The position numbers and the translations under genes were made by a program. Of a DNA stretch of 64,000 nucleotides, positions 1,385-60,774 are shown in pieces (the stretch's first letter is position 1; each line of letters opens with the position of its first letter). The notes under the pieces are model-generated. The model ran no database searches and was not told the DNA's origin. It saw nothing but the letters and a program-made list of their open reading frames with translations. The DNA lies in the NCBI GenBank assembly GCA_905178155.1, contig CAJINV010000016.1:372001-436000 (forward strand), in the 5' to 3' direction. The stretch is from Amoebophrya sp. A120. Its lineage: Eukaryota; Protista; Dinoflagellata.

Positions 1385-4300
1385 TCAGTGCGTATCAACT
1401 CCAAAAATGTCTGGGTCTGGAAGATTGCCACGTTTGTCATGCAGGTTTTCTATGGCCCATAAAGTTTAGAATGCAGCACCTAGCATGACAAATTCTGTGA
1501 GATCTCTATCATGCCTATCATGCATGAGAAATTGCCTCTCAACTTGGTAAAAAAGGGCGGCTGTTGGTAATCACGCAACACAGATTTTTTGCACGATTCA
1601 GATTTAGCATGACAAGTTGCAACCTTCCAGACCCAGACATATTTGCATTTCATAGTGCGTCACGTTTTCCACCGTTAAGCTCCCCTTTCCGTCCACACTG
1701 AACATGAGGTCAATGTGGTGGTGCGATGTTTCTTCGATAGAGACGGTGGTGAGAGGCGTCCCGTCGGCGGCCACCACTTCAATGTTGAAGGAACCTGATA
1801 TACAATATTTTCTAGGTAGGTGAGGTTCACCATAGTCTCGATCCACGCAACATCACACCAGTGAAGACCTTGTGATGGGCCGCCGTCGTCCATGCAAAAA
1901 TTCAACGATTCGGAATAAGTATAATCAGGTGATGTTCTTTGTCATGCAACAAACATGAAATGCAGCTATGGTACCTGGTGCGCATGCGAAGCTCTCCTTC
2001 TGGCTGACGGGCACCGGAACGCCCTTGTGCAAAACTGGGAAAAATGACTTTGCGTTCCCCTTCTTCACGGAAATGCCGACGGCTTGAGACAGAGCGCTAC
2101 CCTCCATGGCGATACCTGTTCCGTAGAAGTTGTATGGTGGTAGTTTTATTATTTTGATGTCACATCTTTAGAAAATTTGTCATGCGAAAGTCACATTGAC
2201 ATTGCCAGCATGTCAAGCGAAATTCACATCGCAAGCATGTTTTGTCTTGCATAAAAGTCCCTGCTCTACAATAATTGTCCGAAAATTTACCTGGCGTATC
2301 GTCGTCGTCGGCTGGCTCGACATTTCCTTTCAGCTCTGCAGAAACCACCAACTCCCCCTCGTCCGTTGCTCCCATGTTGAGCAATACGTCCGCTTGTATT
2401 GCCGCGCCCATCGCGACCACCTCCTCGGCAAGCAAATCGGTCTCGCCCTTGAGCTATCAAATGCAAAAGTGTCTGGTGTTTTGTCTGGAAACAAGACCTT
2501 GGTACAGCACGGGGAAGAGAACGACTTGAACTTTTTGAAGAAAGAAAAGAAAAGAGAACTACGTGGATGCACTATGTAGAGAGAGATTAAAACATGCTAT
2601 TATGTCCACCGGTGGAACTAACTACTGCTACTTATACCGGGTCTGGAGCAAAGCACCTTGTCATGCTAAATCTGAATCATGTGAAAATCTGTGTTGCATG
2701 ATTACCAAAAGCTGTCCACTTTTGACCTAGTCGAGAGGTGGTTTCTCATGCAGGATAGGCATGATAGAACTCTCACAGAATCTGTCATGCTATGTCCTAC
2801 ATACCAGATCTCATGTGTCATGGAAAACCTGCATGACATGTCTGGCACTCTTCCAGACCCAGACACTTTTGCAGTTGATATGAGCTCCTTCGCTTTGCTG
2901 GCGCTGAAGGCCTCGGCAATCGTTTGGCTCACAACGGGGATGTTGCACCCGCCCCCGATGCACAAATACTCGTTGATCTTTGTTGAGGACGAAGTTGTAC
3001 TTGCGGCGACCTTCTCTTGCACTTCCTCGAGCATCTCCTTCAGTTGGTCAATAACGTTCTTCTCCTCGTCTTCCTTCTTCAGCATCTCCTCAAATTGCTC
3101 CCTGGTCACTTGTATGCATTGCAAATATCGATCTGGGGCTGGAATAAACTTGTGATGCGGAACGCGAAAGATTGGAACTGCGCTTGTGGGTGCAGACAAG
3201 CATGATAAGTTCTGAGAACGGCTGCTCGTCATGCGTATCCCGCATGACAAGCTGCGCTTTCGCATGACAAGAGAGTTCTCACCGCGTCTGTTGATGTCGG
3301 TCATGCAATGCAGATTTTCCACGACACACCCATGCAAGATAAGCATTGTAAGTTCAACCTTTCGAGACCCAGAAGATCGATATATTTGCAATGCATAACT
3401 TGCGTGAAGAAGTCCACATCGCCCAGCAATGCTTCCACCTCAATGGTGGCCCGCTTCGACACCGTGAGGGCCTTCTTCGCCTTTTCACAGGCTTCCTTGA
3501 GTCGCAGCATCGCTCGCTCCTCCTTCTTCAGCTGCAGGGCCGCCTTCGGGTCTTTCCTCTTCAAATCCTTGACGCAGTAGTCAAAGAGCGTTTCGTCCAT
3601 CAGCTTGCAGCATCAACTGCAAATATGTCTGGGTCTGGAAGAATGAAAGTTTGTCATGCAGCTTGCCTCGCGTGACTCTTGAATCTGTCATGCATGAGCA
3701 GGAAAGCAGCAGTCTCTTACTTGTCATGCAAAAACGGAGTTTGTCATGCGGGAAGCGAAACACATAGGAGCTCAGAAACTTGTCATGCGTGGCTGCGTAA
3801 GAACGCAGTGCGCCCACCGTGCACAAACTAGCATCACAAGTTGTTTCCAGACCCAGACATATTTGCAGTTCATATGCAGCCGAGGGACCCGGACCCCACC
3901 GAGGTCACCGGTCGGAAAATGCCGGAGTTTTATCCTGTGCAAAAGTATCGCACTCGTAGTAATTGCAGTCATGCAGTACAAATCTCTCTCTTAAGGCAAA
4001 TCAGCATTACAAATTTTATTTTTCATGCTGAGGAGATTTGAAATGCATTTATACGAGTACGATACTTCTTTTGCAATTCATAAGTTTTTGTTCACCGTGA
4101 AAACCGAGCAATCGATATCCTGAGGAAAAACGTCCCCACCCTCCAATACTTGTCATGCAAATCCGCAAGCCTAGAATGTCTCTCATGTGTAGCCCTATGA
4201 GAGCCATTAGCTAAAAATGCTATCTGGGAGTTTGTCATGCTAGAATCCGAATCAGCTAGTCAATTCGTCATGCGGTTATTTCACTAGGTAAACAGGATTA

Positions 4301-7063
4301 CACTGCGAGCCAGAACTTGTCATGCTCGACAGCCAAAACTTGTGGATGTGTGTAGCAGATTCCCCATCTTGACTATGAGGCGAGCAGGACGGTTTTACAT
4401 AGGATAATCGAAGGTAGACGCGCCGAGATCCACAACGGCCACTATCCTGAGTAAAAACGTCCCCACGACCCCATAGTTGTCATGCAGATGTGCGACTACA
4501 GGAAGATTTGTAATGCGCATCTCCATGAGAGGCATTTTCAATCGCGTTTTGGGATTTGTAATGCTGTAAACGGGATGAGCAGATGGATTTGTGATGCCGC
4601 TGCACTGGCTAAACTGCACTACACTACGGACTGCAACTTGTGATGCGTGACTCCCAAAACTCCTAGGTTTGTGTTGCAAAATCCCCATCCCGACTCTCAT
4701 GTGGGGACGTTTTTGAACGGGATAGCGACGGTTTTTTCCTCATCCTTGACCGCCGCCAGACCGTTCCCGCCCGCCGTTGCGGCTGATCCTTGCTGTGCTG
4801 CCTGTATCCTGGGGAAATAAGACGTCCCCAGTAGCTGCATCGTCCCACATTTTTTGTAGATGCAAATTATAATATCCATGAGAAGCAATTTCGCAGTCAT
4901 GCTCGTGGTCGAATTTTTTGTCGTGTTCGTGTAAAATACTATCAGGAGAAAAAAATCGGTTTGATGTGATGAAGATGCGCCTGCACTAGCGAAACACGAT
5001 CAAAATACTCTCCGAGTCCAAGCGGCTTGAATGACCACTCGAAGAGTATTTTTTGACAGGCTTCATTTTGCCTGGCAGTGCTCCCGTACTAGTTCTTCGT
5101 CTTGAAGACTTTATGACTATGACTACTGGGGAGGACCACCACGTGGTCGTTTTTTTTACGCGGGATAGAAGCTGCTCCACTCACGCTGCTGACATTGGGT
5201 GCTGCCATGCCCGGAATCAAGCGGTGGGCGAGGTAGGCCGGGGTGACGTCCAAGCCGTGGGCGATGAGCGCTGCGCACGGTTCCTTCAGTAGTCGCATCA
5301 CCTTCAACTGCGTCGCGCTGTTCTCGTGGCCCCAGTTCGGGCAGGACTCGCAGCAGGCCTTGAGCAACTCCGCCTTCTCGTCCGAATAGTGGGATGGCAC
5401 GGTCAAGACGCAGTGCGTGACTTTATGGAAGTGTCAGGATCGAAATCGTCAAAGTTGAAATAGTTTGTAAAAAGCGACTCTATTGCAGGGGATGCAAGGA
5501 AGGCGGATTATAGTCCAGGTAAGGGTCAAGTATTGGGCTGCTGACTAGCATGGCAGAAGGCAGCGCTTTTGCTCTAAACCGCATGACAGATTCGCTTCTA
5601 GGACGGGGAAAATTTGTCATGCGCCGACTACAAACTGTGGGTCTAACTGGCAACGATTTTGCGCATCACAAATTTTTCGACTTTGTCAATTTCGATTCTG
5701 ACACTTCCTTAGACTTCCTCCCCGAGGTACAGGCTCGCGGTCTCCCGGACTTTGGCGAAGTATGAACTGTAAAAGTATCGCACTCTATGTATTGCAATCA
5801 TGCATTACAACTCTTTTTCTTAAAATAAATCAGCATTACAAATTTTCTTTCTCATGCTGAGGAAATTTGTAATGCATTTATACGAGTACGATACTTTTCC
5901 CCAGGATACGAAGACGAGAGAGGCGATGTCTTCGAGGGGAACCGACGCCTCTTCCCACGCGAATTTGATGGCACAGGATTTGCTGGAAGAGGAGGCCTCG
6001 ACGATCTGGGTTTTTGAAAAATGTGGAGACGTACACGTAGGTATTTATAATCAAAATGGCTTTTATTGATGATGTAGTCGTGCAGTCATGATTCTGTATA
6101 AAGAAATACATCCATTCTGTGGTGGCGTTCAAGTTGGTCCAGCACCTCTACTTGCATGCAAGCCAAGAAGTACTAGACAAGTTCAAGAGGTGTCACGATC
6201 ATGCCGAATAAAGCGGAGAAGCTGCAATGGCTCACATTTAATAGTACTTACCTCAAGATGCTTCAACGCTTTGCTTTCTGCGATGTCTTCTTGGGTAATC
6301 TCGTCGTCGAACGGCTGGCCCAGCAGCTTCTTGAAGTCCCGCACCGTACCTTTGTTTGTTGTTGTTCCACCGTGTAAGTAAAAAACGTAGTTGTGCTTGC
6401 GCTGGCGCTTGATAGATGACAAGACATGGAGATCATGCAGCAAGGAAGATTTAACGTGGAGAGGATAACATGTGTCTGTATCTATCCCCACGACCACCTG
6501 GTCAACATGCAACGATGCAAAAATTCATCATCAAATCACGATGATGAGGTTTAGTTCTTCTGCAGCTACACAATATATTTATAGCTAGTACCTGGTAAAT
6601 TTCTCTCCTTCTGATTGTAAGCCGCATCCCCGACGGTGATTGTGCTACTGCCATCCGCTGCTTTGACGTAAGAAACGCAGACGTTTGTGCTTCGGTTTCC
6701 CATTTCGTTGGGGATCACTTCCTATCAAATGTAAAAATGTCTGGGTCTGGAAGAATGGAAGGCTTGTCATGCTTGTCTGGCATAACCCATGATGCTTCTA
6801 ATGGATGACCCAGCATCACAGATTTTTGGAAAGCTTCCTGATGCCATTTCCGCATGACACATGCCCTCCTCGCGTAGCACAAATGTGGCTCCTCTTGTTG
6901 GTCATGCAATACAGATTTTTTTAGAGTCCAAAGTTAGCATCACAAGTTCCAACTTTCCAGACCCAGACATTTTTACATTTGATACTTCCGTCTGACCGTT
7001 CTTCGACATGGCCACGACGCACGTGGTCGCGCCAAAATCGATACCGATACCGTAAGTCGACAT
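1385..7063 (-). CDS. atypical Hsp70-family protein (HSPA14/Ssz1-like), ~585 aa, 16 exons
   Basis: Spliced motifs GIGIDFGAT, VLTVP..LLKEPCAALIAHGLD, VVDLGASTFD, NSGIFR, RLKEACEKAKKAL, EEVVAMGAAIQA; short C-terminus without lid/EEVD. 11 introners plus GT-AG introns 1795-1974, 2116-2290, 6006-6251, 6350-6591; spliced length 1758 nt. Hsp70 family is secure, HSPA14 subfamily is by recalled similarity. Confidence 0.85.
1393..1654. mobile_element. introner family A
   Basis: TIR TATCAA..AAAATGTCTGGGTCTGGAAG; direct repeat gtgcg/gtgcg. Confidence 0.9.
2455..2880. mobile_element. introner family A with ~160-bp internal insertion
   Basis: Family A TIRs; direct repeat tgagc/tgagc. Confidence 0.85.
3113..3397. 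mobile_element. introner family A (diverged)
   Basis: Diverged family A TIRs; direct repeat acttg/acttg; removal joins FFTQV-TREQFEE. Confidence 0.9.
3611..3874. mobile_element. introner family A
   Basis: Family A TIRs (left end CATC); direct repeat tgcag/tgcag. Confidence 0.9.
3931..4082. mobile_element. introner family B
   Basis: TIR TATCCTGTGCAAAAGTATCG.ACTCGTA; direct repeat agttt/agttt. Confidence 0.9.
4116..4406. mobile_element. introner family C (diverged)
   Basis: TIR TATCCTGAG.AAAAACGTCC; direct repeat atcga/atcga. Confidence 0.85.
4443..4724. mobile_element. introner family C
   Basis: Family C TIRs; direct repeat gccac/gcgac. Confidence 0.9.
4805..5167. mobile_element. highly degenerate introner (C-like ends)
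   Basis: Residual TIR TATCCTGGGGAAATAAGACG / CGTTTTTTTTACGCGGGATA; direct repeat lost, but removing element plus 5 nt restores the Hsp70 frame. Confidence 0.6.
5424..5711. mobile_element. introner family I (singleton)
   Basis: ~37-bp TIR TATGGAAGTGTCAGGATCGAAAT; direct repeat gactt/gactt. Confidence 0.9.
5761..5908. mobile_element. introner family B
   Basis: Family B TIRs; direct repeat cgaag/cgaag. Confidence 0.9.
6723..6984. mobile_element. introner family A
   Basis: Near-perfect TIR TATCAAATGTAAAAATGTCTGGGTCTGGAA; direct repeat cttcc/cttcc. Confidence 0.95.
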
Positions 7064-7382
7064 TTTTGTCCAGTACTGAAATAAGTAATCGCTACAACTT
7101 GGGACGAAAGCCACAAAAAAATTCACTGGCGTAGCGCTTTTGCTGCAGCTGCAAGATGAATAAATACAGTTTGAATAAATGCAAGGGTTCGCTATGTTGT
7201 ACCAAAAATCGATGTTAGTTTATTCTCCGCAGCTGAATAAACGAAATTGTACGTGTTCTTAGTGGCCGCGTGCAAATGACGATCGAACGGGAAAAAGTAG
7301 GTGTAGTAAGTGGTGAATTTATAGCTAAAAAAAGAAACTTCGTCCTCTCCTGCGAAGTTTCAAGCACCTACGTGAGCCTGTT

Positions 7383-8368: not shown

Positions 8369-9818
8369 TCAGTAAAACCCCCCTTTTCCCATGCCCTGCC
8401 CTTTCCCGGACTTGCCGATGGTTTGCGCATACATTCCCATCTGGCGCTGCGCTCTATCCTGTGCAAAAGTATCGCACTCGTATAATTGCAATCATGCATT
8501 ACAAATTCTTTTTTTTAGGTAAATCCGCATTACAAATTTTATTTCTCATGCTGAGGGAGTTTGTCATGCATTTATACGAGCACGATACTTTTGCAGTTCA
8601 TACGCTCGCGTCTGAGCAGATTCCGGGCCTTGGTTCAGCACGTGTGCCTATGTATTGGAAATATGTCTGGGTCTGGGTGGAAAGTTGTATTAATGCCAAA
8701 AGTGAATGATTGATATGCGCACGCGCACGGCAATGCGCAGCCACGCATGACAAATTTTTTGGACTGCTATGTGATTCGTTTTGCGCATGACAGACTGCGT
8801 TTTTGCATGACAGACAAGAGGCCCTTATTTACATTTTCCACCTCCCCTCGCATTTTTCCAGAGTTTGGTTTCGCAGTCAAAGTCATGTGAGACAAGCATG
8901 ACAAACTTCTTGCACTCTTCCAGACCCAGACCTTCGATATTTGCATTTGATAATGCCCGGGAGTGCTTCGCCACCGTGGCCTGGTTTCGTGCGCTCGCCC
9001 GAACCATCGCGTTTTGCAGCTGTCCCATCGCGTTATTAATGTCGCTGGTGCCCTTGCTGTGGGTGACGCCCTTGGTGTACTGAATGTTTGCGGCAGCCTA
9101 TGGAGAGAAAAAAGTTTGTCACAGACACAGTCACAGTCACTATCTTGGAGGGTTTGCATTACAAATTTTCTCAGCATCACAAACTTTCCTTGTATTGCAG
9201 AAACACTAGGGAAATCCCTAATGAAGTTTGGCTTTGATGCATTTTTACGCATGACAAACAATTTTGTATTGCAAGAATGCGCATGAGTGATCGTGACGAA
9301 CTTTTTTTCTTTGATACTGCCTGCTCCAGCGCCAGGTCCCGCGTGATTTGTTCCCGCTGCAGGTGAATGTCGCGCGTCATCTCGTGGTAGCCACCCCACG
9401 ACCTCCGTTTGCGCTTCTCCTTTACATCTGCGTGGTGCTCGTCCCAGCGTCGGGCGTTCTCTATACCCTCGTGGTTGTACCGGGCCCACGCCTCGCGGTC
9501 CCGGTGCTGTTGCTTCTTTTTGTACAGAACCACGGCAACCACCACGCCGGCGAGTACCAGGAAAAGCAAAACATAGAACAGCACGTTATGGTCCGTGTTG
9601 CTGAATTGGAGCAACCGCTGCAGAAATTGCTCTTCCAAAGGGGTGGTTCTGGTTATCGAGTTCAATATGATTTCATCGTGTACTCCTGGAGACTTGTTTT
9701 CATAGACCCGGACCGCAGGCAATGCGTCGCTATAGTGGATGTCCACAAGCTGCTTAATAGTCGCAGAAGCTTCTTGCAGCGGAGAGGAGCTGCTGCCACG
9801 ATTGTCAAGCATTTGCAT
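8369..9818 (-). CDS. hypothetical single-pass membrane protein, ~254 aa
   Basis: TM segment VLFYVLLFLVLAGVVVAVVLY followed by KKK; three introners removed give 765 nt ending GKSGKGQGMGKGGFY*. Confidence 0.75.
8455..8602. mobile_element. introner family B
   Basis: Family B TIRs; direct repeat cgctc/cgctc. Confidence 0.9.
8649..8952. mobile_element. introner family A
   Basis: Family A TIRs; direct repeat gtgcc/atgcc. Confidence 0.85.
9099..9316. mobile_element. introner family J (singleton)
   Basis: TIR TATGGAGAGAAAAAAGTTTGTCAC / GTGACGAACTTTTTTTCTTTGATA; direct repeat cagcc/ctgcc. Confidence 0.85.
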
Positions 9819-11280: not shown

Positions 11281-14200
11281 TCAGTAAAACCCATCCCGTC
11301 CAGCTTGGTGAAGTTCCCGTTGCTGGTTGTAAATGTGCTCCACTCGGTCATAGCTCATGGGCGGGCGCACGACTATCCCAGAGAAAAAAGCTGGCAGGGG
11401 ATATTTGTAATGCAAAAATAAATAGACAGAAAAACTTGCCATGGGCGGCCCCCTAGCATGCACATGCTGCTTCGGATATGCAATGCAGATTTTTATTTTG
11501 TGTATTTATTTTTGCATTACAAATATGAGCTGGCAGCTTTTTTCTCTGGGATAACGACGCCCGTCTGCGCACTGGCGTCCGCCTCTCGTTTCGCAGCTAT
11601 CGCAAGAAAAAAGTGTTTCACTGTGAACTTGTGATGCATAGAATGGAACAGCACAGAACTATTTGTCTTGCTACACCTGCAAGACCTTGACTCTTTAGGG
11701 GTGTTTTCCCTTTGGAAGCGCGCATGGCAAATTTTCTGTGTCATGTGTAACAAACTTGTGATGCAGATCTTTCAGAGTCATTACAGTGAAACAGTTTTTT
11801 CGTGGGATAGCAGCCCGCATCACGTCAATCTGCGGCCCCCCGTGCGCCTGAAAGGCGCCCCGGAGCGACCACCCCCCGCCCCCGCCGCGCATCGAACTGG
11901 TGTTGTGGAGGATGTGGTCGTTCGCATTGGAGTATCCACAGGAAAAATCCCCCCACCTCTCACATCAAAAACGAAATTTGTGCTGCTGTATTTGAGTAAA
12001 CACAAATCGACTTTTAAGTATTGCCAGAAGGCCAAGAGACGCAGTTGCTCCCTCCTTTGCAGGCAATTTGTCATGCTGTTTTCCATTTCCATTCGGATTT
12101 GCCTCCGCCTCCTGTCGTGCTGAAGACGCACGGCTTTCCTACGCCACCCAGCACTACAGTCCGCTTCTTTTGCCACCTTCTAGCATGACAGCATGACTTG
12201 TGGTCTCAAATCATGCTACACAAATCTCCGCTTTAGTATGGGGAGGGGGGAATTTTCCTTTTGATATGGAGGTGCCGGCCTCCCATATGGATTGCAAAAG
12301 TATCGTACTCGTATAAATGCATTACAAATTTCTTCAGCATGAGAAATAAAATTTGTAATGCTGATTTGCCTTGATAAAGAAATTTGTAATGCAAGACCTG
12401 CATTTATACGAGTACGATACTTTTGCACAGGATATCCCAGTCGTGGTACCGATCTTCAAAGCCGTAGTGCCCGCGGCCTTCCAGTATCCTGAGTAAAAAC
12501 GTACCCACACCAGAGTCAATTTGGGGTTTTGCAACACAAACCTAGGACTTTTTGGAGTCACGCATGACAAGTTGCACTCCGTAGTGTAGTGCAGGGTAGC
12601 AAGTGCAGCTGCATCACAGATCCATCTGCTTATCCTGTTCATGGCATCACAAATTCCAAAACACGACTGAAAATGTGTACCGTGTGTATGCGCATCACAA
12701 ATGTCCTTGTCATTGCAAATCTGCATGACAACTCTGGGGTGGGAACGTTTTTCCTCAGGATATCCAGGCGCGCGTTAGCCTTGTCTTGCATCTTATCAAA
12801 TGTAAAAATCCCTGGATGTCTGGAAACTTGTGATGTTGCGTGGCGTCTCATGATGAGGCCACAAGTGCTGGCTCAGCATGACAAGTTTCTGAGCTTCTAG
12901 GCGTTGCCTATGCTGCATGACAAACTGCGTTTCTGCACCACAGAAGGGTGGGGCTCTTGGTTAACGTGCATGACAAATTTAAGAGTCATGCCAGACAAGC
13001 ATGACAAACATGCATTCTTCCAGACCCAGACATTTTTGCATTGGATACATCTTGTCCACTTGCCGCTGCGGTTTCTTCTTCGCCCGGGGTGTCCAACTGG
13101 CAATGTTGGTGTCCTCGTAGTAGTGCTCCCCGTGATCGCCGTGGTGCGTCACGGTTTGAAAGGTCGAAGTGGTCACCTGCCCTCCGCCCTTGCCGTGTTT
13201 GTTCAGCACCGCGTTTTTCTTTTGTTGCACGCGCTCCGAGCGCGGCGTCGCAGTTGCTCCACCGTGGTTGCTGTACCCAGCAGCTCCGGGGTAGGAACGG
13301 GTAGATGACATTTCGGAGGAAATCGAGCGGCTTGAGTGGGGAGTAGAGTCGTACCCGTGATGATCGCTGTACCCGGAGTGATGCGAATGGTGCCCGCTGT
13401 GATTGTGCGAATAGTCAGAGTGGTAGCCCTCGTGATCATCGTATTCTTCGTCCCATTCACCATCATGATCGTGGTAGCCGTAGCCTTCGTGCTCGTCATA
13501 ATGAGAATGTTCATCGTAATAGGAAGATTCGTCGCCATGGTGCGAGTGGTCTCCGTAGTGCGAATCTTCCCCGTAGTTGTGGTGGTCACTGTAGTGCGAT
13601 CCGTGGTCCGACCACCCTTCTTCGTAATGGCCGTGCTCGCCTCCGCCGTGGTGGTGGTTATGGCGTTCGCAAACGTTACATTCTCAACTGTTACATGGAT
13701 TTGTAATGCAAGAACAGCAACAGTGAAAGTGGCAATATTGCAGCTTTCGCATCACAGATTTTCCACAGATCATGATGCGGCTTAGCCCTTCGAAAATTTG
13801 TCATGCTAAGCACCTTGATCAAGTGGAGGCTGATGGCAGTTTTGCATGACAAATCCGTGTAACAGTTGAGAATGTAACAGTTGAGAACGCCATAGTGGTA
13901 GTGCTGGTCGTGATAGTTGCCCGCTTCGCCCTCAGCCGAAACGGTCTTATTGATCCGGCTTGTTTTATATGAACTGCAAAAGTATCGTACTCGTATAAAT
14001 GCATCACAAATTTCCTCAGCATGAAAAATGAAATTTGTAATGCGGATTTAGCTTAATGTAATGCATGATTGCAATACGAGTACGATACTTTTGCACAGGA
14101 TATTTTACGGGGTGTTTGCAGTTGCACCTCCGCCATCTCGAGGGCAACGTCATTGGCAGCGCTCATCGTCCTATGCATTGCAAAAATGCCTGGGTCTGGA

Positions 14201-14645
14201 AACTTGTCATGCTAAAATAAAGTGAATGGGAGACGCACTGCAATACGCAGCTACGCATGACAAATTTTTTAGCTCCCATGTCTTACGTAATCCGCATGGC
14301 AAACTGCGTTTTTGCATGACAGGTAAGAGGGCCTCTTCGTGCCTATGCAACGCAGATTCTCGAGTCATGCCAGACAAGCATGACAAACTTGCATTCTTCC
14401 AGACCCAGACATTTTTGCATTTGATACGTCCCTCGGCCAGCTTGTTTCCTCGGGGTGGTCACTGGAGCTCCTGCTTCCGCTACAGCCATCTGCGGGGACT
14501 TTTTCTGCATGGACAGTGCCACCACAAGGATTAACGCCACCACCGCAACGCACGCCCCAACAATGCCGATGACAACGGCGGTGTCAATTTCCGCGCCACT
14601 CGCGTTCTCCGTCACGTGCACATTCGCGCCTTGCTGCGCCGACAT
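11281..14645 (-). CDS. His/Tyr/Asp-rich single-pass membrane protein, ~428 aa
   Basis: TM AVVIGIVGACVAVVALILVVAL near the N-terminus; tract like HHGGGEHGHYEEGWSDHGSHYSDHHNYGEDSHY; nine introners removed give 1287 nt ending GRDGFY*. Confidence 0.8.
11374..11553. mobile_element. introner family H (singleton)
   Basis: TIR TATCCCAGAGAAAAAAGCTG.CAG; direct repeat acgac/acgac. Confidence 0.9.
11598..11809. mobile_element. introner family E
   Basis: TIR TATCGCAAGAAAAAAGTGTTTCACTGT; direct repeat gcagc/gcagc. Confidence 0.9.
11933..12266. mobile_element. introner family D
   Basis: TIR TATC....GGAAAAATCCCCCC.CC; direct repeat tggag/tggag. Confidence 0.9.
12286..12434. mobile_element. introner family B
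   Basis: Family B TIRs; direct repeat tccca/tccca. Confidence 0.9.
12485..12762. mobile_element. introner family C
   Basis: Family C TIRs; direct repeat tccag/tccag. Confidence 0.9.
12794..13047. mobile_element. introner family A
   Basis: Family A TIRs; direct repeat catct/catct. Confidence 0.9.
13659..13894. mobile_element. introner family F
   Basis: TIR TATGGCGTTC.CAA..GTTACATTCTCAACTGTTAC with internal tandem unit; direct repeat gtggt/gtggt. Confidence 0.9.
13968..14102. mobile_element. introner family B
   Basis: Family B TIRs; direct repeat tttta/tttta. Confidence 0.9.
14172..14426. mobile_element. introner family A
   Basis: Family A TIRs; direct repeat cgtcc/cgtcc. Confidence 0.9.
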
Positions 14646-49500: not shown

Positions 49501-52301
49501 ACTCGAGTGCAGGGCATCGCGGCAAACCGGCGCGCATTCTCTCGATTCTCAAGGCCTCGGGTGGTTGTGCGGACGCCTCCTGTTTCTGTGTGGTTGTCGC
49601 ATCTCGATCCTGCTGCTGGTTGTCAACGCGCCGCTTTGACAACCAGCAACACGCTGACAACTTGGAAGAACCAAGCCGAAACAAGAAATGTGCGCCGGTT
49701 TGCCGGTGCCGGTGCCCGTGCCCACCGCCAACGCGGCAAGGGCAAGGACCCCTAAGGCGGGAGCCTCTGGCGCAAGGGCGCACCCGCCCCGGGCTGGCCG
49801 GGTGTCCGTCGGGGAGGGAGTGAAACCCCGCGACGCCGGCGCAGTCCGAGGGGCAAGCACGAATATCGGATCCCTCCTGGCAAGGGGAGATCCCCGGAGG
49901 CTGGGGCGAACGCACCGGGGCGAGGGCGGATCCCCCGAGCTGAGGAGGATCCCCCCAAAGAAAGTTCGTAGGCTGGACCCCCCGAGGGCGCGCGGATCCG
50001 CGGGAGGCGGGCCGGCCCTCCGGGGCGAGGGCGGATCCCCCGAAGAACCGGCGGACCCCCCGGGGCGCGGGCGGATCCCCCGCAGAACAGGCGGATCCCC
50101 GGGGAGCGGGCGGATCCCCCGGAGAACCGGTGGGCCCCCCGGGCGAAGGCGGATCCCCCGGGGTGCGGGCGGAGCCCCCGGGGAACGGGCGCATCCCCCG
50201 GGAACGGGCGGATGCCCGAGGAACAAGCGGATCCCCTGGGCGAAGGCGGATCCCCGGTGAGCGGGCGGATCCCCGGGGAGCGGGCGGATCCCCGAGTAGC
50301 AGGCGGATCCCCTGGGCGAAGGCGGATCCCCGGGGAACGGGCGGACGGGACCCCCTGGGCGAAGGCGGATCCCCGGGGTGCGGGCGGACCCCCGGGAGCG
50401 GGCGGATCCCCTGAGCGAAGGCGGATCCCCGGGAGCGGGCGGATCCCCTGCGCGAAGGCGGATCCCCGGCGGGCGGATCCCCTGAGCGAAGGCGGTTCCC
50501 CGGGGAAGGGGCGGATCCCCTGGGCGAACGAAGGCGGATCCCCGGGGAACGGGCGGATCCCCTGGGCGAAGGCGGATCCCCGGGGAGCGGGCGGATCCCC
50601 GAGTAACAGGCGGATCCCCGGGGAGCGGGCGGATCCCCGTGGAGAGGCGGATCCCCCAAAAAACAAGAGAAATCGAAATCACGATGCTATGAGTATTTAT
50701 TTTTCGTCATTCTAAACACAAGAAAACCACGCTGCCGTCGTGTTTCGCTGGTTTGGGTCTCAGAGCGTCAGGGTCTCAAATACAAACGGGTGCCGGTGGC
50801 ACAAGACGGCGCAACAAACACGGCGAGATTCCAGAAAATCTCAAAACATTCGCAGTCTAGGCGAAAAATTGCCCAGATCACAATAAAAACACAATCCCGA
50901 TGGCAGAGCGCGTTTTTCCTCGTTTACAAACGGCCGTTTGTAAAATACGAACGGCCATCCTGTACGACGTAGCCCCGACGGGACTCTGCAAATCGAGAAA
51001 AGTGCAAGAGTAAAGCTTCAAGCGATGATCATTCTTCCGCAGAAAGCTATTCTGTATGCTGCTGCGCACTTTGGAATTACAAACGGGCACCGGTGGCACA
51101 AGCAGGCGCAACAAACACGGCGGGATTCCACGAAATCTTCAAAAATTCGATGTCTACGCGAAAAATTGCCCAAATCGCAATAAAAACACAATCCCGATGG
51201 CAGAGCGCGTTTTTCCTCGTTTACAAACGGCCGTTTGTAAAATACAAACGGCCATCCTGTACGACGTAGCCCCGACGGGACTCTGCAAATCGAGAAAAAT
51301 GAAAGCGTAAAGCTTCCAGCGATGATCATTCTTCCAAAGAAAGCTATCCTGCATGCTGCTGCGCACTTTGGGGGGGCGTTTGTAAAAATACAAACGGATG
51401 CCGGTGGCACAAGAAGGCGCAACAAACACGGCGAGATTCCAGAAAATCTCAAAACATTCGCAGTCTAGGCGAAAAATTGCCCAAATCGCGCTAAAAACAC
51501 AATCCCGATGGCAGCGCGCGTTTTTTCTCGTTTACAAACGGCCGTTTGTAAAAAATTGCAACAACAAAACCGTAGTTTCATATATTTACCTCCGATATCT
51601 TCTTCCGGATCCTCGGAAAACAGCGAGAGTCGCACGTTTTTCAAACACACCTCCATATTCCCCAAAACGTGCTGCACGAGCCTTGACAACGTTTCCACTC
51701 CCTCGTCCCCGTAGCCCGAGGATTGCGGTTCCTGCTTTTTCTTATCGGCAGTGCTACGATTTTTGCCTTTGGACGAAGATCCTCTTGACGAGTCGTAATC
51801 ACTGCTCGCCATTTGAAACTGCTGTTTTTTCTTCGTCTGGTTTGTCATTTTCGAGGTTGCTGAGGAAAACAGGTTAGAAGTACTCGATGACGAATGCTGA
51901 TGATCTGGGGAGTCTGGCCTGCTGGAATTGATCCCGTCAACATCCTGATCATCACCTGCAGATCCGTTCTTCCCGCTACTCAAAATACTCCCGGACACGT
52001 GCAAGTCCGCTATGTAAATTTTGCAGGATTTCTCCAACAAGCGGCTCCAGGGGATTTCCATGCGCAAATACCCCACCGCACCGTCGAGGAGCTTGAAGGG
52101 CGAGTCCTGCAGGTGTTCGTTCAGGAGGTCCGTTTCTAACTCCAAATTGCGCAACTCCAGCACTCCGTGCGACATTTGCAGGGAGACTTCCAGGTTGTCG
52201 AGGTCCAAATCTTTCCGCAGGAAGCCCCCGAGGAAACGGCGCAGCACATACTTGTAGAACCGCTTAAGCGGCACCTGCGTCAGACGGGCGGCGAACTCCA
52301 T
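31575..52301 (-). CDS. ATG2: autophagy-related protein 2 (chorein-N lipid transfer protein), ~3947 aa
   Basis: N-terminal LKRFYKYVLRRFLGGFL..LDLDNLEVSL..IPWSRLL; C-terminal LLPIRLTLDQD, DYRAKRLDMQALQRGDLTELINL, PIRSFANIG, RGTTAFLKNLTIE, QPADGLEG, LRGVRNSMDGERKEELERKYK. 14 introners plus GT-AG introns 31710-31839, 32287-32420, 43475-44204, 46127-46259, 47182-51589 give 11844 nt. Confidence 0.9.
32007..32227. mobile_element. introner family E
   Basis: Family E TIRs (left end CATC); direct repeat tttat/tttat. Confidence 0.85.
32635..32849. mobile_element. introner family E
   Basis: TIR TATCGTGAGAAAAAA; direct repeat aattc/aattc. Confidence 0.9.
33177..33388. mobile_element. introner family L
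   Basis: TIR TATCCAAGAAAAAAA; direct repeat gttgt/gttgc. Confidence 0.85.
33954..34109. mobile_element. introner family B
   Basis: Family B TIRs; direct repeat gactg/gactg. Confidence 0.85.
35822..36084. mobile_element. introner family G (long copy)
   Basis: TIR .ATGACAGTGCACAACTCCCCC; direct repeat tctgt/tctgt. Confidence 0.85.
36229..36492. mobile_element. introner family A
   Basis: Family A TIRs; direct repeat tgtcc/tgtcc. Confidence 0.9.
37885..38195. mobile_element. introner family D
   Basis: Family D TIRs; direct repeat caagt/caagt. Confidence 0.9.
40630..40779. mobile_element. introner family B
   Basis: Family B TIRs; direct repeat ccctt/cccct. Confidence 0.85.
41507..41715. mobile_element. 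introner family E
   Basis: Family E TIRs; direct repeat tgatt/tgatt. Confidence 0.9.
41780..42041. mobile_element. introner family A
   Basis: Family A TIRs; direct repeat cgaac/agaac. Confidence 0.9.
43504..44100. repeat. 132-bp tandem repeat, ~4.5 copies, in an ATG2 GT-AG intron
   Basis: Units starting tggagaatttctggagctca at about 43504, 43636, 43769, 43901, 44033. Confidence 0.95.
44289..44437. mobile_element. introner family B
   Basis: Family B TIRs; direct repeat ctcgt/ctcgt. Confidence 0.9.
45406..45730. mobile_element. introner family D
   Basis: Family D TIRs; direct repeat accgg/accgg. Confidence 0.9.
46540..46818. mobile_element. introner family C
   Basis: Family C TIRs; direct repeat tgttt/tgttt. 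Confidence 0.9.
46866..47127. mobile_element. introner family A
   Basis: Family A TIRs; direct repeat ccaaa/ccaaa. Confidence 0.9.
47305..48392. repeat. ~311-bp tandem repeat, left block (~3.5 copies)
   Basis: acggccatcctgtacgacgtagccccga recurs near 47310, 47620, 47930, 48245. Confidence 0.95.
48652..49460. repeat. ~115-125-bp GC-rich tandem repeat built from gaggattcc subunits
   Basis: Repeated gaggattccaaaatcctctcaggaatcctctggcccaagttg blocks. Confidence 0.9.
49880..50657. repeat. GC-rich minisatellite, ~19-20-bp unit with core ggcggatcccc
   Basis: Dozens of ggcggatcccc cores in tandem. Confidence 0.95.
50778..51555. repeat. ~311-bp tandem repeat, right block (~2.5 copies)
   Basis: Same unit as 47305-48392. 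Confidence 0.95.
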
Positions 52302-56040: not shown

Positions 56041-58159
56041 TCAATCCAAATCGTCGAGTTCGTCCTTCGATTCTACTGGTTTTTCAACTACTTCGACTTC
56101 CTTTTCCACAGATTTTTCTGCACTTGCTTTCCTACCCTGCTCCTCATCCACACCACTCCTGTCTTCACTGTGATCAGACGCCGACTTATTTTCAACGCCC
56201 GCGCCAGCAGAATTCGCAGTTGATTTCCCTTCCCCCGGTTCCTCTACCGCACAAGCCACCGCAGCACAAAACTTCGCTGCCTCCTCCTCGGTCGCGACAA
56301 ATTCGACCTTCTTCCGTAGCATCCGTAACCCGGTCACCATGCACCTCCCCAATTCCGTCATCTCCGCATTGCCGTCAATCCGCACGGTCTTTAAAGAGGG
56401 TAAATTATCCGGACTCGCGAGGAAGGCCACCAACTGCTGCATCCCCGCGTCCGCGATTTCGTTGTGGGAAAGGTCCAGGGTCTGGATGTAAGACGAGTCT
56501 GTGATTTTTTTATTTTCGTTTTCGATTTTCAAAGACAGGTGGATGTTCGATAAAAGTAGGCATGGAAAAGAGTATGTTATGCGTCTTGTTCTTTCTTGCA
56601 AACAATTACATTCCCCTCGAACATCGTTTTGCAACTCTACTGTCCTCTCACCTTTGCAAACCTCCAGCACACTCCCCATGTCCGTGTCCCCGAGGCCGAG
56701 TTTTGGGAGTTTGAGCACATTCCCCTTCAAGTACTGTTTCACTCCGGTCGCGGTGATGCCGTTGCATTTCTTGGATTCCGCAAGTTCTGCCGGCATTTTT
56801 GTCGACGGTCCGGTGGAAGAGGAGGATGAAGTGGATGCTCCTGCTGCAGTTTCTGTGGTGGGAAATTCCAATACAGTTCATTCCTGAGACGAAATCATGA
56901 CACCATAATCACGTAGTATAATTCATCGTGAATAACAATAACACCTACACCTAGACGCGTCCTCGAATATAATGGCGCATCCGAGCAAGAAAAGCAAAAG
57001 TGACAGCTTGTGCGCGTGACATTATACCATCATCCCCCAAAAGTTTCTCGTCTTTTCCCCCAGGAGCCCGACCATCCCCCTTGTTCCCGCTGCAACTCGC
57101 TTTCGACTGAATGCTGTAACTCCCACTTTCCGCGTCCGGCTTGAACGCCAACGTCGCCCGGTGGTCCTTCGATTCCTGTTCCAACCGTTCGATTTCCGTC
57201 AAAATCTCCTGCATCCGCTTCCGCATGCCCGGGGCTCGCTCTTTAAAATCGGCTTCCCCGACGTACTATCAACTGCAAAGGTGTCTGGGTCTGGAAGATT
57301 TCTAGATTTGTCACGCATATCTTGCATGAGCCATGATGTCTGTGATGCATGCCGTAGCATCACAGACTTTTAGAGGGCTTTGTGATACCTCTACCGCATG
57401 AGAAATGCCCTCTCCACGTAGGACAAACCCGACCCCTCTTGCTGGTCATGCAATACAAATCTTTTTAGAATCCACAGACAGCATCACAAGTTGTGACCTT
57501 CCAGACCCAAACATATTTGCATTTGATACGTACTTCAGACAGTCCAAGCAGTAACTCACCACCTTTCCCGTTTCCCGAAACGCCTGCTTCTTGAAATCTT
57601 CCGGTAGAACACACCCGGCTATCGTGAGGAAAAATCCCCCCTCCCCATATTGACGAGGTGCGTTTTCGAAATTTGTGTTGCTGATTTGTGGCCACAATTA
57701 GCGTCTGTCTTGCAAGAAGGCAACTCCGCAGGCTCCGCCGCATTATGCAGGCGGTTTGTCATGCTGTTGGGCCTACAGTGCGGAAGTTTTTCATGCTAAG
57801 CGCCTAGGCAAAACCTCTCTCCTCAGACTCGATAGGGGCCTGCAGCCCTCTCCAGCAACACAAACCTGATTTGCGTACGCAAATCCAGCATCAGAAACTT
57901 CATTTTGATATGGGGAGAGGGGATTTCTCATTTTGATACCGGGCTTGTGGTGGCGGGACTGGACCTTCCAGGCGAATTCTCGGAGCTTTTCGACCTGTTC
58001 CGTGAAGGGTAATTCCTCCCAAGGTCTAGTGTCCGTCTCCTTCGCCGGAAGATCGTTGGCTTTCTGATAGCTATTGCGGGTATCCAGCTGCTTTGCGTCG
58101 TGTTCCTCATCGCTGTCGATCTCCTCGATACGAGGGCCGTCGGAATAGGAAGGAGCCAT
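56041..58159 (-). CDS. leucine-rich repeat (RI-like) protein
   Basis: LRR motifs LKLPKLGLGDTDM, IQTLDLSHNEIADAGMQQL, LKTVRIDGNAEMTELG; acidic ends RIEEIDSD and ELDDLD; two introners plus probable GT-AG introns near 56500-56650 and 56850-57027 (boundaries uncertain). Confidence 0.7.
57267..57528. mobile_element. introner family A
   Basis: Family A TIRs; direct repeat cgtac/cgtac. Confidence 0.9.
57620..57938. mobile_element. introner family D
   Basis: Family D TIRs; direct repeat ccggc/ccggg. Confidence 0.9.
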
Positions 58160-58684: not shown

Positions 58685-60774
58685 TTACACACCAAACACA
58701 ATCTCCTTTCCCTTCAGCAGGAAGTTCTGCGCTAGTGCGATCAAACCTAAAATGCAGCCTTTATGAATTGCAAAGATGTCTGGGTCTGGAAAAATGCAAC
58801 TTGTGATGCTATTTTTGGAATCTACAAAAATCTGTATTGCATGAGCAGCAAGAGGCGTCCAGTTTTTGCCCCGCGTTGGAGAGGGCATTTGTCATGCGGG
58901 ATAGGCATCAAGATACCCGCAAAAAAATTGTGATGCTGGGGCATACATCGCAGACATCACAGGCCATGCAAAATGTCCATGACAAGTCTTGCAATCTTCC
59001 AGACCCAGACACTTTTACAATCCATAGCCTTTCACAAACGACAAAACGCAGATGAAGGTGATGGAAATGGGTAGGACCAGGTAAAAGAAGGAAAAGAAGA
59101 AGGGCCAGAGCGGGCCAGCGGTTGTACTTGGTGGTGGCGACGATGTTGCACAAGATGACGCAGTGGGCATCTTTGTAAACAAAGGCAATGAGAAGCTGCT
59201 CGTCCTGCCTCGATCCCCACGATTATTCTCGAGCTCGTCTAGCTCGTCACACGGAGTTTGGTTCCCAGACCCAGCTTCTTCGATCGATTGCGCATTTTTC
59301 GCTATCGCTGCTTTCTTTTCCAGCACTTTCTCCACCGCCTGGCGAAATTCCCGGGTAGCGCAGACGACGACGAGATTGCGTTTCTCGTCCGCTTGCTTCT
59401 CCTCCGCCACTCGCTCTATCTGTTTCGCAAAATGTTCCGCCCGTTTTTCGATCAAGGTCGGCACCATGGCGAGGGGAAGAGGGAGTTTCGTGTCGGCACC
59501 GGCAGTTGTACTAGTTGTAGCATCTTTATTCACAGAGGCAGCTGCCGCGGTATTTACTTCGCCTAGTACCCCTACATCACCACTATTTGCACCTCCAGTA
59601 GCCATGCCACCAGAACCATCTCCAGCATCCGCATGTCGTGTGCAGCTCCTTTGCTCCTCCAGCAATCTCGTTCGCCGACTCACATCCGCCAGCCGCTGTT
59701 TTGCGTATTTCGCGTACTGAAAAAGCAACCAGGGCTTTAGGAACAGCAGTTTCGCCACGTCGTTCTGCGTTTGCCGGTACAGCTGGTCGCAGGGATGGAA
59801 GGTGGTCGTGGTGCTACTCGTAGTGGAAGTAGCACCAGAGTTCATCGTGTCCTCGCCCTTAGTATCGTTTGTAATATTTTTTGTCATGCTATTCTTCAAT
59901 TCCAGCATATGCTCTGCAAAAGTATCGTACTCGTACTAATTGCAATCATGCATGACAAATCTTGTTTTTTTAGCGAAATCAGCATTACAAATTTCATTTC
60001 TCCTTCTGGAAAAATCTGTAATGCTATTTCTACTAGTACGATACTTTTGCAATGCATACAGCAGATCTCGAGACAGAAGCCCGCCGTGCAGCGTGTTTAT
60101 CGCGTCCAACTGAGCTTGGTATTTTTCGCTGTTATGGACTGTAAAAATGTCTGGGTCTGGAAACTTGTGATGCTGGGTGGCGTATCATGAAGGGGCCACA
60201 AGTACTGGCTCAGCATGGCAAGCTTTTGAGCTTCTAGGTGTTGCCTCTTCTGCATGACAAGCTGCGTTTCTGCATGACAGCAAAATGGGGCTCTTGGGTA
60301 ACGTGCATGACAGATTTAAGAGTCATGCCAGACACGCACGACAAACATGTACTCTTCCAGACCCAGACATATTTGCAATGCATAGCTGTTCGCGTTCTGC
60401 AAATTCTTCCACCGGACCGGGCAAGTTTCGAGCAGGATGTGTGCTGGGTTGAGCGCAAGCACAGTCGTGGAAAGCCGCTGGGTACTAGTCTCTGAAGATG
60501 TTGTCCATCTTGATGTGGTGCTCCTCGTCAGAGAAAATGCTTCTGCGTCAAGAAACGTGATCCGATTGCCGCCGCTTCGTAATGTGCTGGTGCTTGTTGT
60601 CCCGAAAGTACGAGTTCTTCTTGTACTAGAGGGTGAACGTGAAGTAAAAGTCTCACGCCCTAATAAGTAGACACTCGAGCCGCATGTTCTGGAGCACAGT
60701 GCTGGTGATCTGCTTGAAGTGGAAAATGCATGCTGTGCTGATGCGGAGGAGGAGGTGCTCAAGAAGATCTTCAT
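58685..60774 (-). CDS. divergent TraB/TRABD-like membrane protein, ~468 aa, possibly mitochondrial
   Basis: Ser/Arg-rich, acid-poor N-terminus; NPAHILLETCPVR resembles TraB PDxVxVELCxxR; LIEKRAEHFAKQI and NLVVVC resemble TraB C-terminal motifs; C-terminal TM; three introners removed give 1407 nt. Confidence 0.55.
58762..59026. mobile_element. introner family A
   Basis: Family A TIRs; direct repeat gcctt/gcctt. Confidence 0.9.
59908..60058. mobile_element. introner family B
   Basis: Family B TIRs; direct repeat cagca/cagca. Confidence 0.9.
60133..60384. mobile_element. introner family A
   Basis: Family A TIRs; direct repeat gctgt/gctgt. Confidence 0.9.

What the first reader, a model, noticed from the sequence alone, without database searches (positions are those of the whole stretch)
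1393..60384. 65 transposon-like elements act as precisely removed non-canonical introns
Seen: 65 elements of 85-426 bp in ~12 families with TIRs TAT...ATA and 5-bp direct repeats interrupt seven genes, including conserved motifs of Hsp70 and ATG2. Removing element plus one repeat copy gives CDS lengths divisible by 3 in all six genes I summed (1758, 765, 1287, 8847, 11844, 1407 nt). Known: inverted-repeat/direct-repeat introners with non-canonical ends have been reported in Amoebophrya genomes, and as far as I know the removal mechanism is unresolved. Inference: a dedicated excision machinery lets MITEs colonise exons at no coding cost.
Basis: partly seen in the sequence, partly recalled or inferred. 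Interest (0 to 1): 0.92.

Follow-up and report, generated by a model that had tools for sequence, protein, structure and literature searches.

The report
Known Amoebophrya transposon-derived non-canonical introns
Seven genes of a parasitic dinoflagellate are interrupted by 65 small transposon-like inserts that lack normal intron ends yet are missing, to the base, from the likely messenger RNA of the one gene tested; this intron class was described in 2021, and the machinery that removes it is still unidentified.

Summary
65 elements (85-426 bp; TAT...ATA inverted ends; a 5-bp direct repeat in 64) lie in the coding regions of seven genes. Two exons searched are 100% identical to public Amoebophrya sp. 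A120 proteins, and the end motif is the one Farhat et al. 2021 published for A120 introner elements, so the class is known. Probable RNA contigs lack all 23 elements of one 2,948-aa gene at exactly element+5 nt (11 of 11 and 9 of 9 checkpoints); a DNA-like run keeps them. Details I did not find in the papers read: families are removed in both orientations; mismatched repeats show the upstream copy is kept through base 3, excluding the only AG-rich register; no register is enriched for GT-AG; 64 of 65 elements share an internal motif TTGTVATGC; none lies outside coding exons. Best reading: RNA splicing that reads the inverted ends at fixed offsets, probably a U1-less spliceosome core; a separate cut-and-ligate pathway is nearly as likely. 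A 'dedicated machinery' is not shown, and one public gene model reads into an element. The scan noted similar introns in other genomes (unchecked).

The parts
1385..7063 (-). Gene G1, Hsp70-like, 585 aa; 11 elements, 4 canonical introns
   Evidence: Pfam PF00012 on 3 of 7 exons tested
8369..9818 (-). Gene G2, unknown, 254 aa; 3 elements
   Evidence: first exon 100% identical to P0002
11281..14645 (-). Gene G3, unknown, 428 aa; 9 elements
   Evidence: exon 13048-13653 lies inside a 2,377-nt contig of run X3
16110..30554 (-). Gene G4, unknown, 2,948 aa; 23 elements, no canonical intron
   Evidence: contig 10 of X3 (9,489 nt) equals 15557-30643 minus 23 x (element+5)
31575..52301 (-). Gene G5, ATG2; 14 elements, 5 canonical introns
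   Evidence: agrees with public P0001 at 14 of 14 element junctions
56041..58159 (-). Gene G6, LRR-containing; 2 elements, 1 canonical intron (acceptor not fixed)
58685..60774 (-). Gene G7, unknown, 468 aa; 3 elements
1393..1654 (-). element 262 bp, GTCTGG type
2455..2880 (-). element 426 bp, GTCTGG type (longest)
3113..3397 (-). element 285 bp, GTCTGG type
3611..3874 (-). element 264 bp, GTCTGG type, 3' end ATG
3931..4082 (-). element 152 bp, ~150-bp family
4116..4406 (-). element 291 bp, ~280-bp family
4443..4724 (-). element 282 bp, ~280-bp family, repeat mismatch at base 3
4805..5167 (-). element 363 bp, singleton, no direct repeat; +5 removal or a 371-nt GC-AG intron both keep the frame
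5424..5711 (-). element 288 bp, singleton, 5' end TAA
5761..5908 (-). element 148 bp, ~150-bp family
6723..6984 (-). element 262 bp, GTCTGG type
8455..8602 (-). element 148 bp, ~150-bp family
8649..8952 (-). element 304 bp, GTCTGG type, mismatch at base 5; public model reads into it
9099..9316 (-). element 218 bp, singleton, mismatch at base 4
11374..11553 (-). element 180 bp, singleton
11598..11809 (-). element 212 bp, ~210-bp family
11933..12266 (-). element 334 bp, AATCCCC type
12286..12434 (-). element 149 bp, ~150-bp family
12485..12762 (-). element 278 bp, ~280-bp family
12794..13047 (-). element 254 bp, GTCTGG type
13659..13894 (-). element 236 bp, ~240-bp family
13968..14102 (-). element 135 bp, ~150-bp family
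14172..14426 (-). element 255 bp, GTCTGG type
17036..17173 (-). element 138 bp, ~150-bp family
17391..17614 (-). element 224 bp, AATCCCC type
17968..18380 (-). element 413 bp, GTCTGG type, mismatch at base 1 (upstream copy kept)
18634..18951 (-). element 318 bp, AATCCCC type, mismatch at base 3 (upstream copy kept)
19270..19584 (-). element 315 bp, singleton with AATCCCC-like ends
19796..20034 (-). element 239 bp, ~210-bp family, mismatch at base 2; spanned whole by a contig of X1
20081..20284 (-). element 204 bp, ~210-bp family
20339..20482 (-). element 144 bp, ~150-bp family
21188..21272 (-). element 85 bp (shortest); junction resolved singly in X3 and X6
21934..22182 (-). element 249 bp, ~240-bp family
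22398..22718 (-). element 321 bp, AATCCCC type
23751..23964 (-). element 214 bp, ~210-bp family
24014..24329 (-). element 316 bp, AATCCCC type; the only one whose retention would keep the frame open
24492..24632 (-). element 141 bp, ~150-bp family
24768..25024 (-). element 257 bp, GTCTGG type
25305..25579 (-). element 275 bp, GTCTGG type, mismatches at bases 3 and 5 (best junction marker)
25797..26132 (-). element 336 bp, AATCCCC type, 3' end ATG
26199..26343 (-). element 145 bp, ~150-bp family, mismatch at base 1
26677..26826 (-). element 150 bp, ~150-bp family
26907..27166 (-). element 260 bp, GTCTGG type
27293..27571 (-). element 279 bp, ~280-bp family
27619..27843 (-). element 225 bp, ~210-bp family, mismatch at base 2 (upstream copy kept)
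28779..29013 (-). element 235 bp, ~240-bp family; junction resolved singly in X3
32007..32227 (-). element 221 bp, ~210-bp family, 3' end ATG
32635..32849 (-). element 215 bp, ~210-bp family
33177..33388 (-). element 212 bp, ~210-bp family, mismatch at base 1
33954..34109 (-). element 156 bp, ~150-bp family
35822..36084 (-). element 263 bp, ends like 21188-21272, 3' end ATG
36229..36492 (-). element 264 bp, GTCTGG type
37885..38195 (-). element 311 bp, AATCCCC type
40630..40779 (-). element 150 bp, ~150-bp family, mismatch at base 2 (public model has the upstream copy's residue)
41507..41715 (-). element 209 bp, ~210-bp family
41780..42041 (-). element 262 bp, GTCTGG type, mismatch at base 5 (silent)
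44289..44437 (-). element 149 bp, ~150-bp family
45406..45730 (-). element 325 bp, AATCCCC type
46540..46818 (-). element 279 bp, ~280-bp family
46866..47127 (-). element 262 bp, GTCTGG type
57267..57528 (-). element 262 bp, GTCTGG type
57620..57938 (-). element 319 bp, AATCCCC type, mismatch at base 1
58762..59026 (-). element 265 bp, GTCTGG type
59908..60058 (-). element 151 bp, ~150-bp family
60133..60384 (-). element 252 bp, GTCTGG type

Best explanation
These 65 inserts carry the published ends of Amoebophrya A120 introner elements; they are likely non-autonomous DNA transposons that made a 5-bp target duplication on insertion, and they are missing, with one repeat's worth of sequence, from probable mRNA, likely because splicing reads the inverted TAT...AT(A/G) ends at fixed offsets instead of GT and AG. 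Shown: anatomy, exact element+5 loss in one gene, removal in both orientations, upstream repeat kept through base 3. Inferred: the paired arms bring the two junctions together; the 5' cut falls 0-2 nt before TAT and the 3' cut 3-5 nt after AT(A/G). My committed guess for the catalyst (about 0.5) is the U2/U5/U6 spliceosome core working without U1 and without G+1/AG checking, cutting 1 nt before TAT so that TAT stands at +2..+4, where this window's canonical donors have T, A and C/A/T. The mobiliser is inferred to be one trans-acting transposase or integrase not encoded in the window, perhaps binding the shared motif TTGTVATGC.
For: End profile of 116 arms: TAT, seven looser bases, then AAA, as published for A120. 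2 of 3 protein searches hit A120 proteins at 100%. X3 contig 10 fits element+5 at 11 of 11 checkpoints over 23 elements, X6 contig 12 at 9 of 9 over 9; both end in the gene's flanks, and other contigs of these runs leave the genome at the canonical acceptor 31709/31710, as RNA would. X1 contigs run 25-60 nt into elements at depth 35-50 and one spans 19796-20034 whole. Public ATG2 agrees at 14 of 14 element junctions. Orientation within families 8:6, 4:5, 2:3, 2:1, with both orientations among the 23 removed. No register gives GT/GC-AG in more than 2 of 65; only 3 of 65 have any such register. Ends are conserved after insertion: 5 changes in 390 terminal sites against 8.5-17 expected from repeat divergence (P 0.15-0.0006; 0.03 at the middle rate), 4 of them the same A-to-G at the 3'-most base, while the mirror 5' T is 65 of 65. 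The only 5' variant, TAA, matches 3 of 10 canonical donors at +2..+4. 63 of 65 fold better than doublet shuffles (z<-2); arm position 12 is predicted paired in 60 of 65. Farhat: 83 of 89 spliceosomal proteins and U2, U4, U5, U6 found in A120, U1 not.
Against: X3 and X6 are RNA only by the tool's guess; only 2 of 23 junctions are resolved singly, the rest as sums; the other six genes have no junction-level read evidence here. The public G2 model reads into element 8649-8952 and stops at 8827: retention or mis-annotation. Arm mismatches show no G.U bias in the transcript sense (38 against 43) and sense and antisense fold equally (34 of 65), so RNA-level pairing is predicted, not shown; arm positions 4-7 pair in only 27-40 of 65. 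No enrichment of G at +1 (18 of 65) or AG (4 of 65) in the guessed register, and no branch-like bias of the 3' arm (25 against 28 at the tested position), which weighs against the spliceosome. Repeat bases 4 and 5 are unmapped.
Confidence: 0.85

Rival explanations
1. Same RNA-level removal, but by a separate non-spliceosomal cut-and-ligate pathway (endonuclease plus ligase) that recognises the hairpin with TAT/ATR and the A/U block at positions 11-13, as proposed for euglenid nonconventional introns.
For: Orientation-blind removal; no GT, GC or AG preference in any allowed register beside strict GT-AG in 10 of 10 modelled canonical introns; Euglena introns need an inverted motif at fixed, 3'-longer offsets (PMC12501133 abstract) and leave as circles (review PMC11282704).
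Against: The 5' T/TA invariance with a relaxed 3' mirror base fits donor-like reading; a tunicate splices TIR-derived non-canonical introns with its spliceosome; no such enzyme was looked for (no genome held).
Confidence: 0.4
2. Elements are cut from the DNA in the transcribing stage (IES-like or transposase-driven precise excision), so transcripts are copied from element-free templates.
For: Orientation independence, no G.U bias and a strand-neutral internal motif (146 against 132) are what DNA-level recognition would give; element+one repeat is the product of precise excision.
Against: The 8 X1 contigs shown all run into elements at flank depth, none skips one (2,987 joints were not shown and contigs drop rare variants). 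X3 and X6 hold many element-containing contigs as well. The terminal variants are strand-skewed (4 ATG at the transcript 3' end, 0 at the 5' end). Thousands of precise excisions per nucleus are not described for this lineage (recalled).
Confidence: 0.05
3. Ordinary spliceosomal removal at cryptic GT/GC-AG sites in or near the repeats.
For: Element 4805-5167 can be read as a 371-nt GC-AG intron; 3 of 65 have a GT/GC-AG register; public annotation lists GT or AG ends for part of each A120 family.
Against: 62 of 65 have no such register at net length +5; the one register with frequent AG (19 of 65) is excluded by the mismatched repeats at 18634 and 27619.
Confidence: 0.03

Closest known systems
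Introner elements among the non-canonical introns of Amoebophrya sp. A120 (Farhat et al. 2021, PMC7789003; outline, sections 10 and 16, passages and supplement passages read)
   Same: IR starting TAT, seven looser bases, then at least three A; 3-5-nt direct repeats (5-bp example in Fig. S19 legend); about 240 nt; many families; RNA-seq-supported; no transposase found in A120; proteins identical to A120's.
   Different: Nothing in kind. Not seen in what I read (word searches for orientation, subterminal, GCAT, excision, branch, lariat; figures not held): both-orientation removal, junction bound from mismatched repeats, the shared internal motif, coding-exon-only placement. The paper calls junction position variable or unknown.
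A120 introner families in Gozashti et al. 2025 (PMC12130899; passages and 21 of 58 A120 rows of supplementary file 8 read)
   Same: Families of 149, 208, 214-227, 252-261, 278-279, 305 and 319-349 bp classed mostly as TIR DNA elements of unknown superfamily, matching the size classes here.
   Different: Automated TSD calls vary from 2 to 5 and splice sites are treated as co-opted; sequences were not compared, so family identity is by size only. Family 38 with integrase-like ORFs is a candidate mobiliser, untested here.
Euglenid nonconventional introns (Nomura et al. 2025, PMC12501133, abstract and passages; review PMC11282704 section 6)
   Same: Non-GT-AG ends, terminal inverted motif at fixed distance from the junctions with the longer spacer on the 3' side, direct repeats, MITE origin proposed, unknown machinery.
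   Different: Motif is CDG/CHG not TAT/ATR; purine required at the downstream exon start; unrelated lineage; circles shown there, untested here.
Spliceosomal introners of Aureococcus, Micromonas, Symbiodinium (PMC9860276 passages) and Fritillaria non-canonical introns (review PMC11282704)
   Same: TIR/TSD transposons that become introns, enriched in genes.
   Different: Those carry or co-opt defined splice dinucleotides; here no dinucleotide is preferred in any allowed register.

Membership tests
Amoebophrya A120 introner elements | IR begins TAT, seven looser bases, then at least three A | tested here: met
   116 arms: TAT 116/116 (ascertained on it), A at 11-13 in 108, 106, 113; over all 130 arms 125 have TAT
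Amoebophrya A120 introner elements | 3-5-nt direct repeat at the exon/intron boundary | tested here: met
   5-bp repeat in 64 of 65, 51 perfect; no extension beyond chance (14 and 15 of 64)
Amoebophrya A120 introner elements | Repeated families | tested here: met
   58 of 65 in 5 clusters, best pair 90% identical
Amoebophrya A120 introner elements | Removed from transcripts at non-GT-AG ends | tested here: met
   23 of 23 in G4 by contig offsets in runs guessed to be RNA; 62 of 65 lack a GT/GC-AG register; other genes not tested on reads
Amoebophrya A120 introner elements | Host is Amoebophrya A120 | tested here: met
   two exons 100% identical to proteins named Amoebophrya sp. A120
MITE (non-autonomous TIR transposon) | Short, TIRs, TSD, no coding capacity | tested here: met
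   85-426 bp; longest ATG ORF 102 aa
MITE (non-autonomous TIR transposon) | Cognate autonomous element with the same TIRs; empty-site alleles | not testable with these tools
   no genome held; Farhat found no transposase in A120
U2 spliceosomal intron | GT/GC donor and AG acceptor | tested here: not met
   at most 2 of 65 in any register
U2 spliceosomal intron | Lariat with branch adenosine | not testable with these tools
   no raw RNA reads of this genome were available; X9 does not hold the stretch
Euglenid nonconventional intron | 5'-N3CDG...CHGN5-6|R signature | tested here: not met
   conserved triplets are TAT/ATR; repeat and flanking bases show no purine rule
Euglenid nonconventional intron | Excised as full-length circle | not testable with these tools
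   needs circle-enriched RNA
Ciliate-type IES (DNA elimination) | Element-free alleles in somatic DNA | tested here: inconclusive
   none among 8 X1 contigs shown; life stage unknown, rare variants dropped

The most novel reading that the evidence does not exclude
Amoebophrya A120 removes tens of thousands of nuclear introns by a spliceosome-independent, orientation-blind reaction run by a domesticated transposase or integrase-like protein: it recognises TAT...ATR and the TTGTVATGC motif that all the otherwise unrelated families share, copies the elements into coding DNA, and cuts them back out of the RNA hairpin, so that the transposon system carries its own splicing.
Probability: 0.1. Interest if true: 0.92.

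Novelty: already known. Interest (0 to 1): 0.32.

Why it matters
The class is published, but how it is spliced is open, and it is one of few cases where a eukaryote removes many nuclear introns with no GT-AG rule and no detected U1. This window shows a cheap way in: about one element in five has a mismatched repeat that marks which copy ends up in the mRNA, so existing RNA-seq could fix the junction genome-wide; three such sites already bound it. Both-orientation removal, selection on TAT/ATR and a motif shared by all families give concrete bait for finding the mobiliser and the splicing factor.

Tried and rejected
Divisibility by 3 as proof of +5: rejected, +2 keeps G2, G3, G4 and G7 open as well. 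G.U-versus-A.C test for RNA pairing: null (38 against 43; the ungapped count double-counted one class and is superseded; its gapped count was 59 against 56). Sense-versus-antisense folding: null. Branch-like bias of the 3' arm: null. Base preference in the repeats: none. The stronger P values for terminal conservation on 325 sites (0.007-0.00001) drop the variable position after the fact; the 390-site values are the fair ones. Motif columns are more conserved than other interior columns in 4 of 4 families (0.91-0.95 against 0.78-0.82), but they were chosen on the consensus, which inflates this. No RNA holder on record was listed for 20001-30000. Raw-read run X9 does not hold the stretch: 119 partial reads on one element end from another locus. 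No read evidence was obtained for 4400-9900, so repeat bases 4 and 5, the TAA variant and the repeat-less element stay open; the public proteins did not settle them (silent changes, or the model reads through). G4 has no hit among 899-2,565-aa proteins, a range that excludes its own length. Rfam: 0 matches. No genome for a transposase search. Literature: six searches showed no paper resolving the Amoebophrya mechanism; Roy et al. 2023 (Curr Biol) was seen only as a citation and in a review's summary, and may bear on these points.

Full report
Observation. A scan that assumed nothing about end sequence (any 5-bp direct repeat around arms alike in at least 13 of 20 positions) returned 66 pairs, 43 of them starting TAT; five shuffles gave 2-7 pairs and none with TAT. 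Relaxed scans and the gene models complete the set at 65 elements of 85-426 bp between 1393 and 60384. In transcript sense (all seven genes are on the minus strand) 60 are TAT...ATA, 4 end ATG and 1 begins TAA. 64 have a 5-bp direct repeat, 51 perfect; the repeats have no sequence preference and do not extend beyond 5 more than chance. One, 4805-5167, has no repeat. Pfam confirms an Hsp70-like gene and ATG2, and finds LRRs in G6. Retaining any single element breaks the frame in all but 1 of the 63 tested.

What it is. Two of three protein searches returned one hit each, 100% identical and named Amoebophrya sp. A120 (one search found none). Farhat et al. 2021 (PMC7789003) describe for A120 29,850 repeated introns in 1,954 families, with inverted repeats starting TAT, seven looser bases and at least three A, direct repeats of 3-5 nt, RNA-seq support, no transposase and no detectable U1 snRNA. 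The end profile here is that motif. Gozashti et al. 2025 list A120 families of the same size classes as TIR DNA elements of unknown superfamily (21 of 58 rows read). The window is therefore a sample of a published class.

Removal. Four runs were laid on 12001-32000. Contig 10 of X3 is 9,489 nt and runs from 15557 to 30643; its record coordinates equal the genome minus element+5 at 11 of 11 checkpoints spanning all 23 elements of G4, and contig 12 of X6 at 9 of 9 spanning 9 elements. Two junctions (21188, 28779) are resolved singly, the rest as sums of 2 to 11. This matters because the frame test cannot tell +5 from +2. The tool only guesses that X3 and X6 are RNA; in favour, contig 10 ends 89 nt before the start and 553 nt after the stop, X6 has no depth at 14669-15335, and contigs of both runs leave the genome at 31708, next to a canonical acceptor. 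X1 behaves as DNA: the 8 contigs shown cross intergenic sequence or run into elements at flank depth, one spans 19796-20034, none skips an element; 2,987 joints were not displayed and contigs drop rare variants. The public ATG2 protein equals my model at 14 of 14 element junctions. Against: the public G2 protein reads into element 8649-8952 and stops at 8827, which is retention or an annotation slip.

Where the cut falls. With perfect repeats the junction is ambiguous over six registers. Mismatched repeats break the tie. In one search the pieces starting at 18952 and 27844 include the whole upstream repeat copy with no differing letter, and the piece ending at 17962 stops short of the downstream copy; these mark bases 3, 2 and 1 as coming from the upstream copy. 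The public ATG2 model agrees at base 2 of 40630. So the 5' cut lies 0-2 nt before TAT and the 3' cut 3-5 nt after AT(A/G). This excludes the only register with frequent AG (19 of 65, the last A plus a chance G). In no register do more than 2 of 65 read GT/GC-AG, and 62 of 65 have no such register. Bases 4 and 5 remain unmapped.

What is read. Family members sit in both orientations relative to the transcript (8:6, 4:5, 2:3, 2:1; the largest cluster mixes two types) and both orientations are among the 23 removed, so the signal is symmetric and lies in the arms, or in a motif present on both strands. The terminal triplets look selected after insertion: 5 changes in 390 sites where repeat divergence predicts 8.5-17 (P 0.15 to 0.0006). 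Four of the five are the same A-to-G at the transcript's 3'-most base, the mirror 5' T never varies, and the fifth turns TAT into TAA. If the cut is 1 nt before TAT, T and A fall at +2 and +3, where the window's ten canonical donors have T (10) and A (9), and +4 is C, A or T; that U+2 is read by U6 snRNA is recalled knowledge. That is the basis of my spliceosome guess. Against it, G at +1 (18 of 65) and AG (4 of 65) are at chance in that register, and the 3' arm shows no branch-site bias. The elements fold strongly (63 of 65 with z below -2) and the arms are predicted to pair, but there is no G.U excess on the transcript strand (38 against 43) and positions 4-7 pair in only 27-40 of 65, so recognition may be of the sequence blocks 1-3 and 11-13 rather than of a perfect helix.

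A shared internal motif. (Y)TGTVATGC with at most one mismatch occurs 278 times in the elements against 19.6 in shuffles (maximum 31 of 200), in 64 of 65 elements and in every family, at 17.9 per kb against 0.9 in exons and 0.7 between genes, often 32-46 nt from an end, with no strand bias (146 against 132). Families with unrelated interiors sharing one end motif and one internal motif point to a single mobilising protein; a role in splicing is possible, since opposite copies can pair. I did not find it in Farhat's main text; figures and Roy et al. 2023 could not be seen. All 65 elements lie in coding exons (27.2 kb) and none in the other 20.7 kb (binomial P 2e-16; 3e-13 without satellites); genic bias is known for introners in general, and two canonical introns of G1 hold 3 and 2 motif copies that may be decayed elements.

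Comparison. Membership in the A120 introner class is met on every feature tested. They work like euglenid nonconventional introns (inverted motif at fixed offsets, longer on the 3' side) but fail that signature. They fail the U2 dinucleotide test, which lowers 'ordinary spliceosomal intron' but not 'removed by a changed spliceosome', for which a tunicate gives a precedent. A random 5-bp target duplication is typical of retroviral-type integrases and some Ginger elements (recalled), and an A120 TIR family with integrase-like ORFs is reported; no link to these elements was tested.

Verdict. Real, precisely removed in the gene tested, and already known. Confidence that removal is RNA-level and end-directed 0.85; within that, spliceosome core about 0.5 against separate pathway about 0.4; DNA excision 0.05. 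Interest 0.32: the phenomenon would not surprise a specialist, but the junction bound, orientation blindness and shared motif sharpen an open question. The scan's earlier notes report like introns in other genomes; I did not check them and they did not change my reading.

Noticed in passing
window 47182-51589: The first ATG2 intron (GT-AG, 4,408 nt) is a satellite sandwich: 311-bp units (3.5 copies), 114-bp units (6.2), GC-rich 19-bp units (35), then 297-311-bp units again (2.6).
   Followed up: no
window 43500-44104: 132-bp tandem array, 4.5 copies, inside another canonical ATG2 intron.
   Followed up: no
window 4805-5167: Element with intact TAT...ATA ends but no direct repeat and no internal motif; can also be read as a 371-nt GC-AG intron, a possible element turning canonical.
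   Followed up: partly
window 1795-1974 and 2116-2290: Canonical GT-AG introns of the Hsp70-like gene carry 2 and 3 copies of the element motif; possible decayed elements.
   Followed up: partly
window 8369-9818 and 11281-14645: Neighbouring genes G2 and G3 both have an N-terminal hydrophobic stretch and end in DGFY/GGFY; possibly diverged paralogues. The public model of G2 has a different C-terminus.
   Followed up: no
window 2455-2880 and 17968-18380: The two longest elements are GTCTGG-type copies with about 150 extra bases; 17968-18380 holds a 35-bp tandem duplication at 18125-18192.
   Followed up: no
window 52400-56000: 3.6 kb without a modelled gene, partly about 60% GC, with no element ends found.
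   Followed up: no
window 62600-63463 (minus): Uninterrupted 288-aa ORF with no Pfam hit and no element.
   Followed up: no
window 17968-18016: Raw-read RNA run X9, which does not hold this locus, has 119 reads on an unspliced related element end, 69 of them with one other flank: a retained copy elsewhere.
   Followed up: no
window 12267-12285 and other short exons: Internal exons as short as 14, 26, 28 and 31 nt between introns.
   Followed up: no
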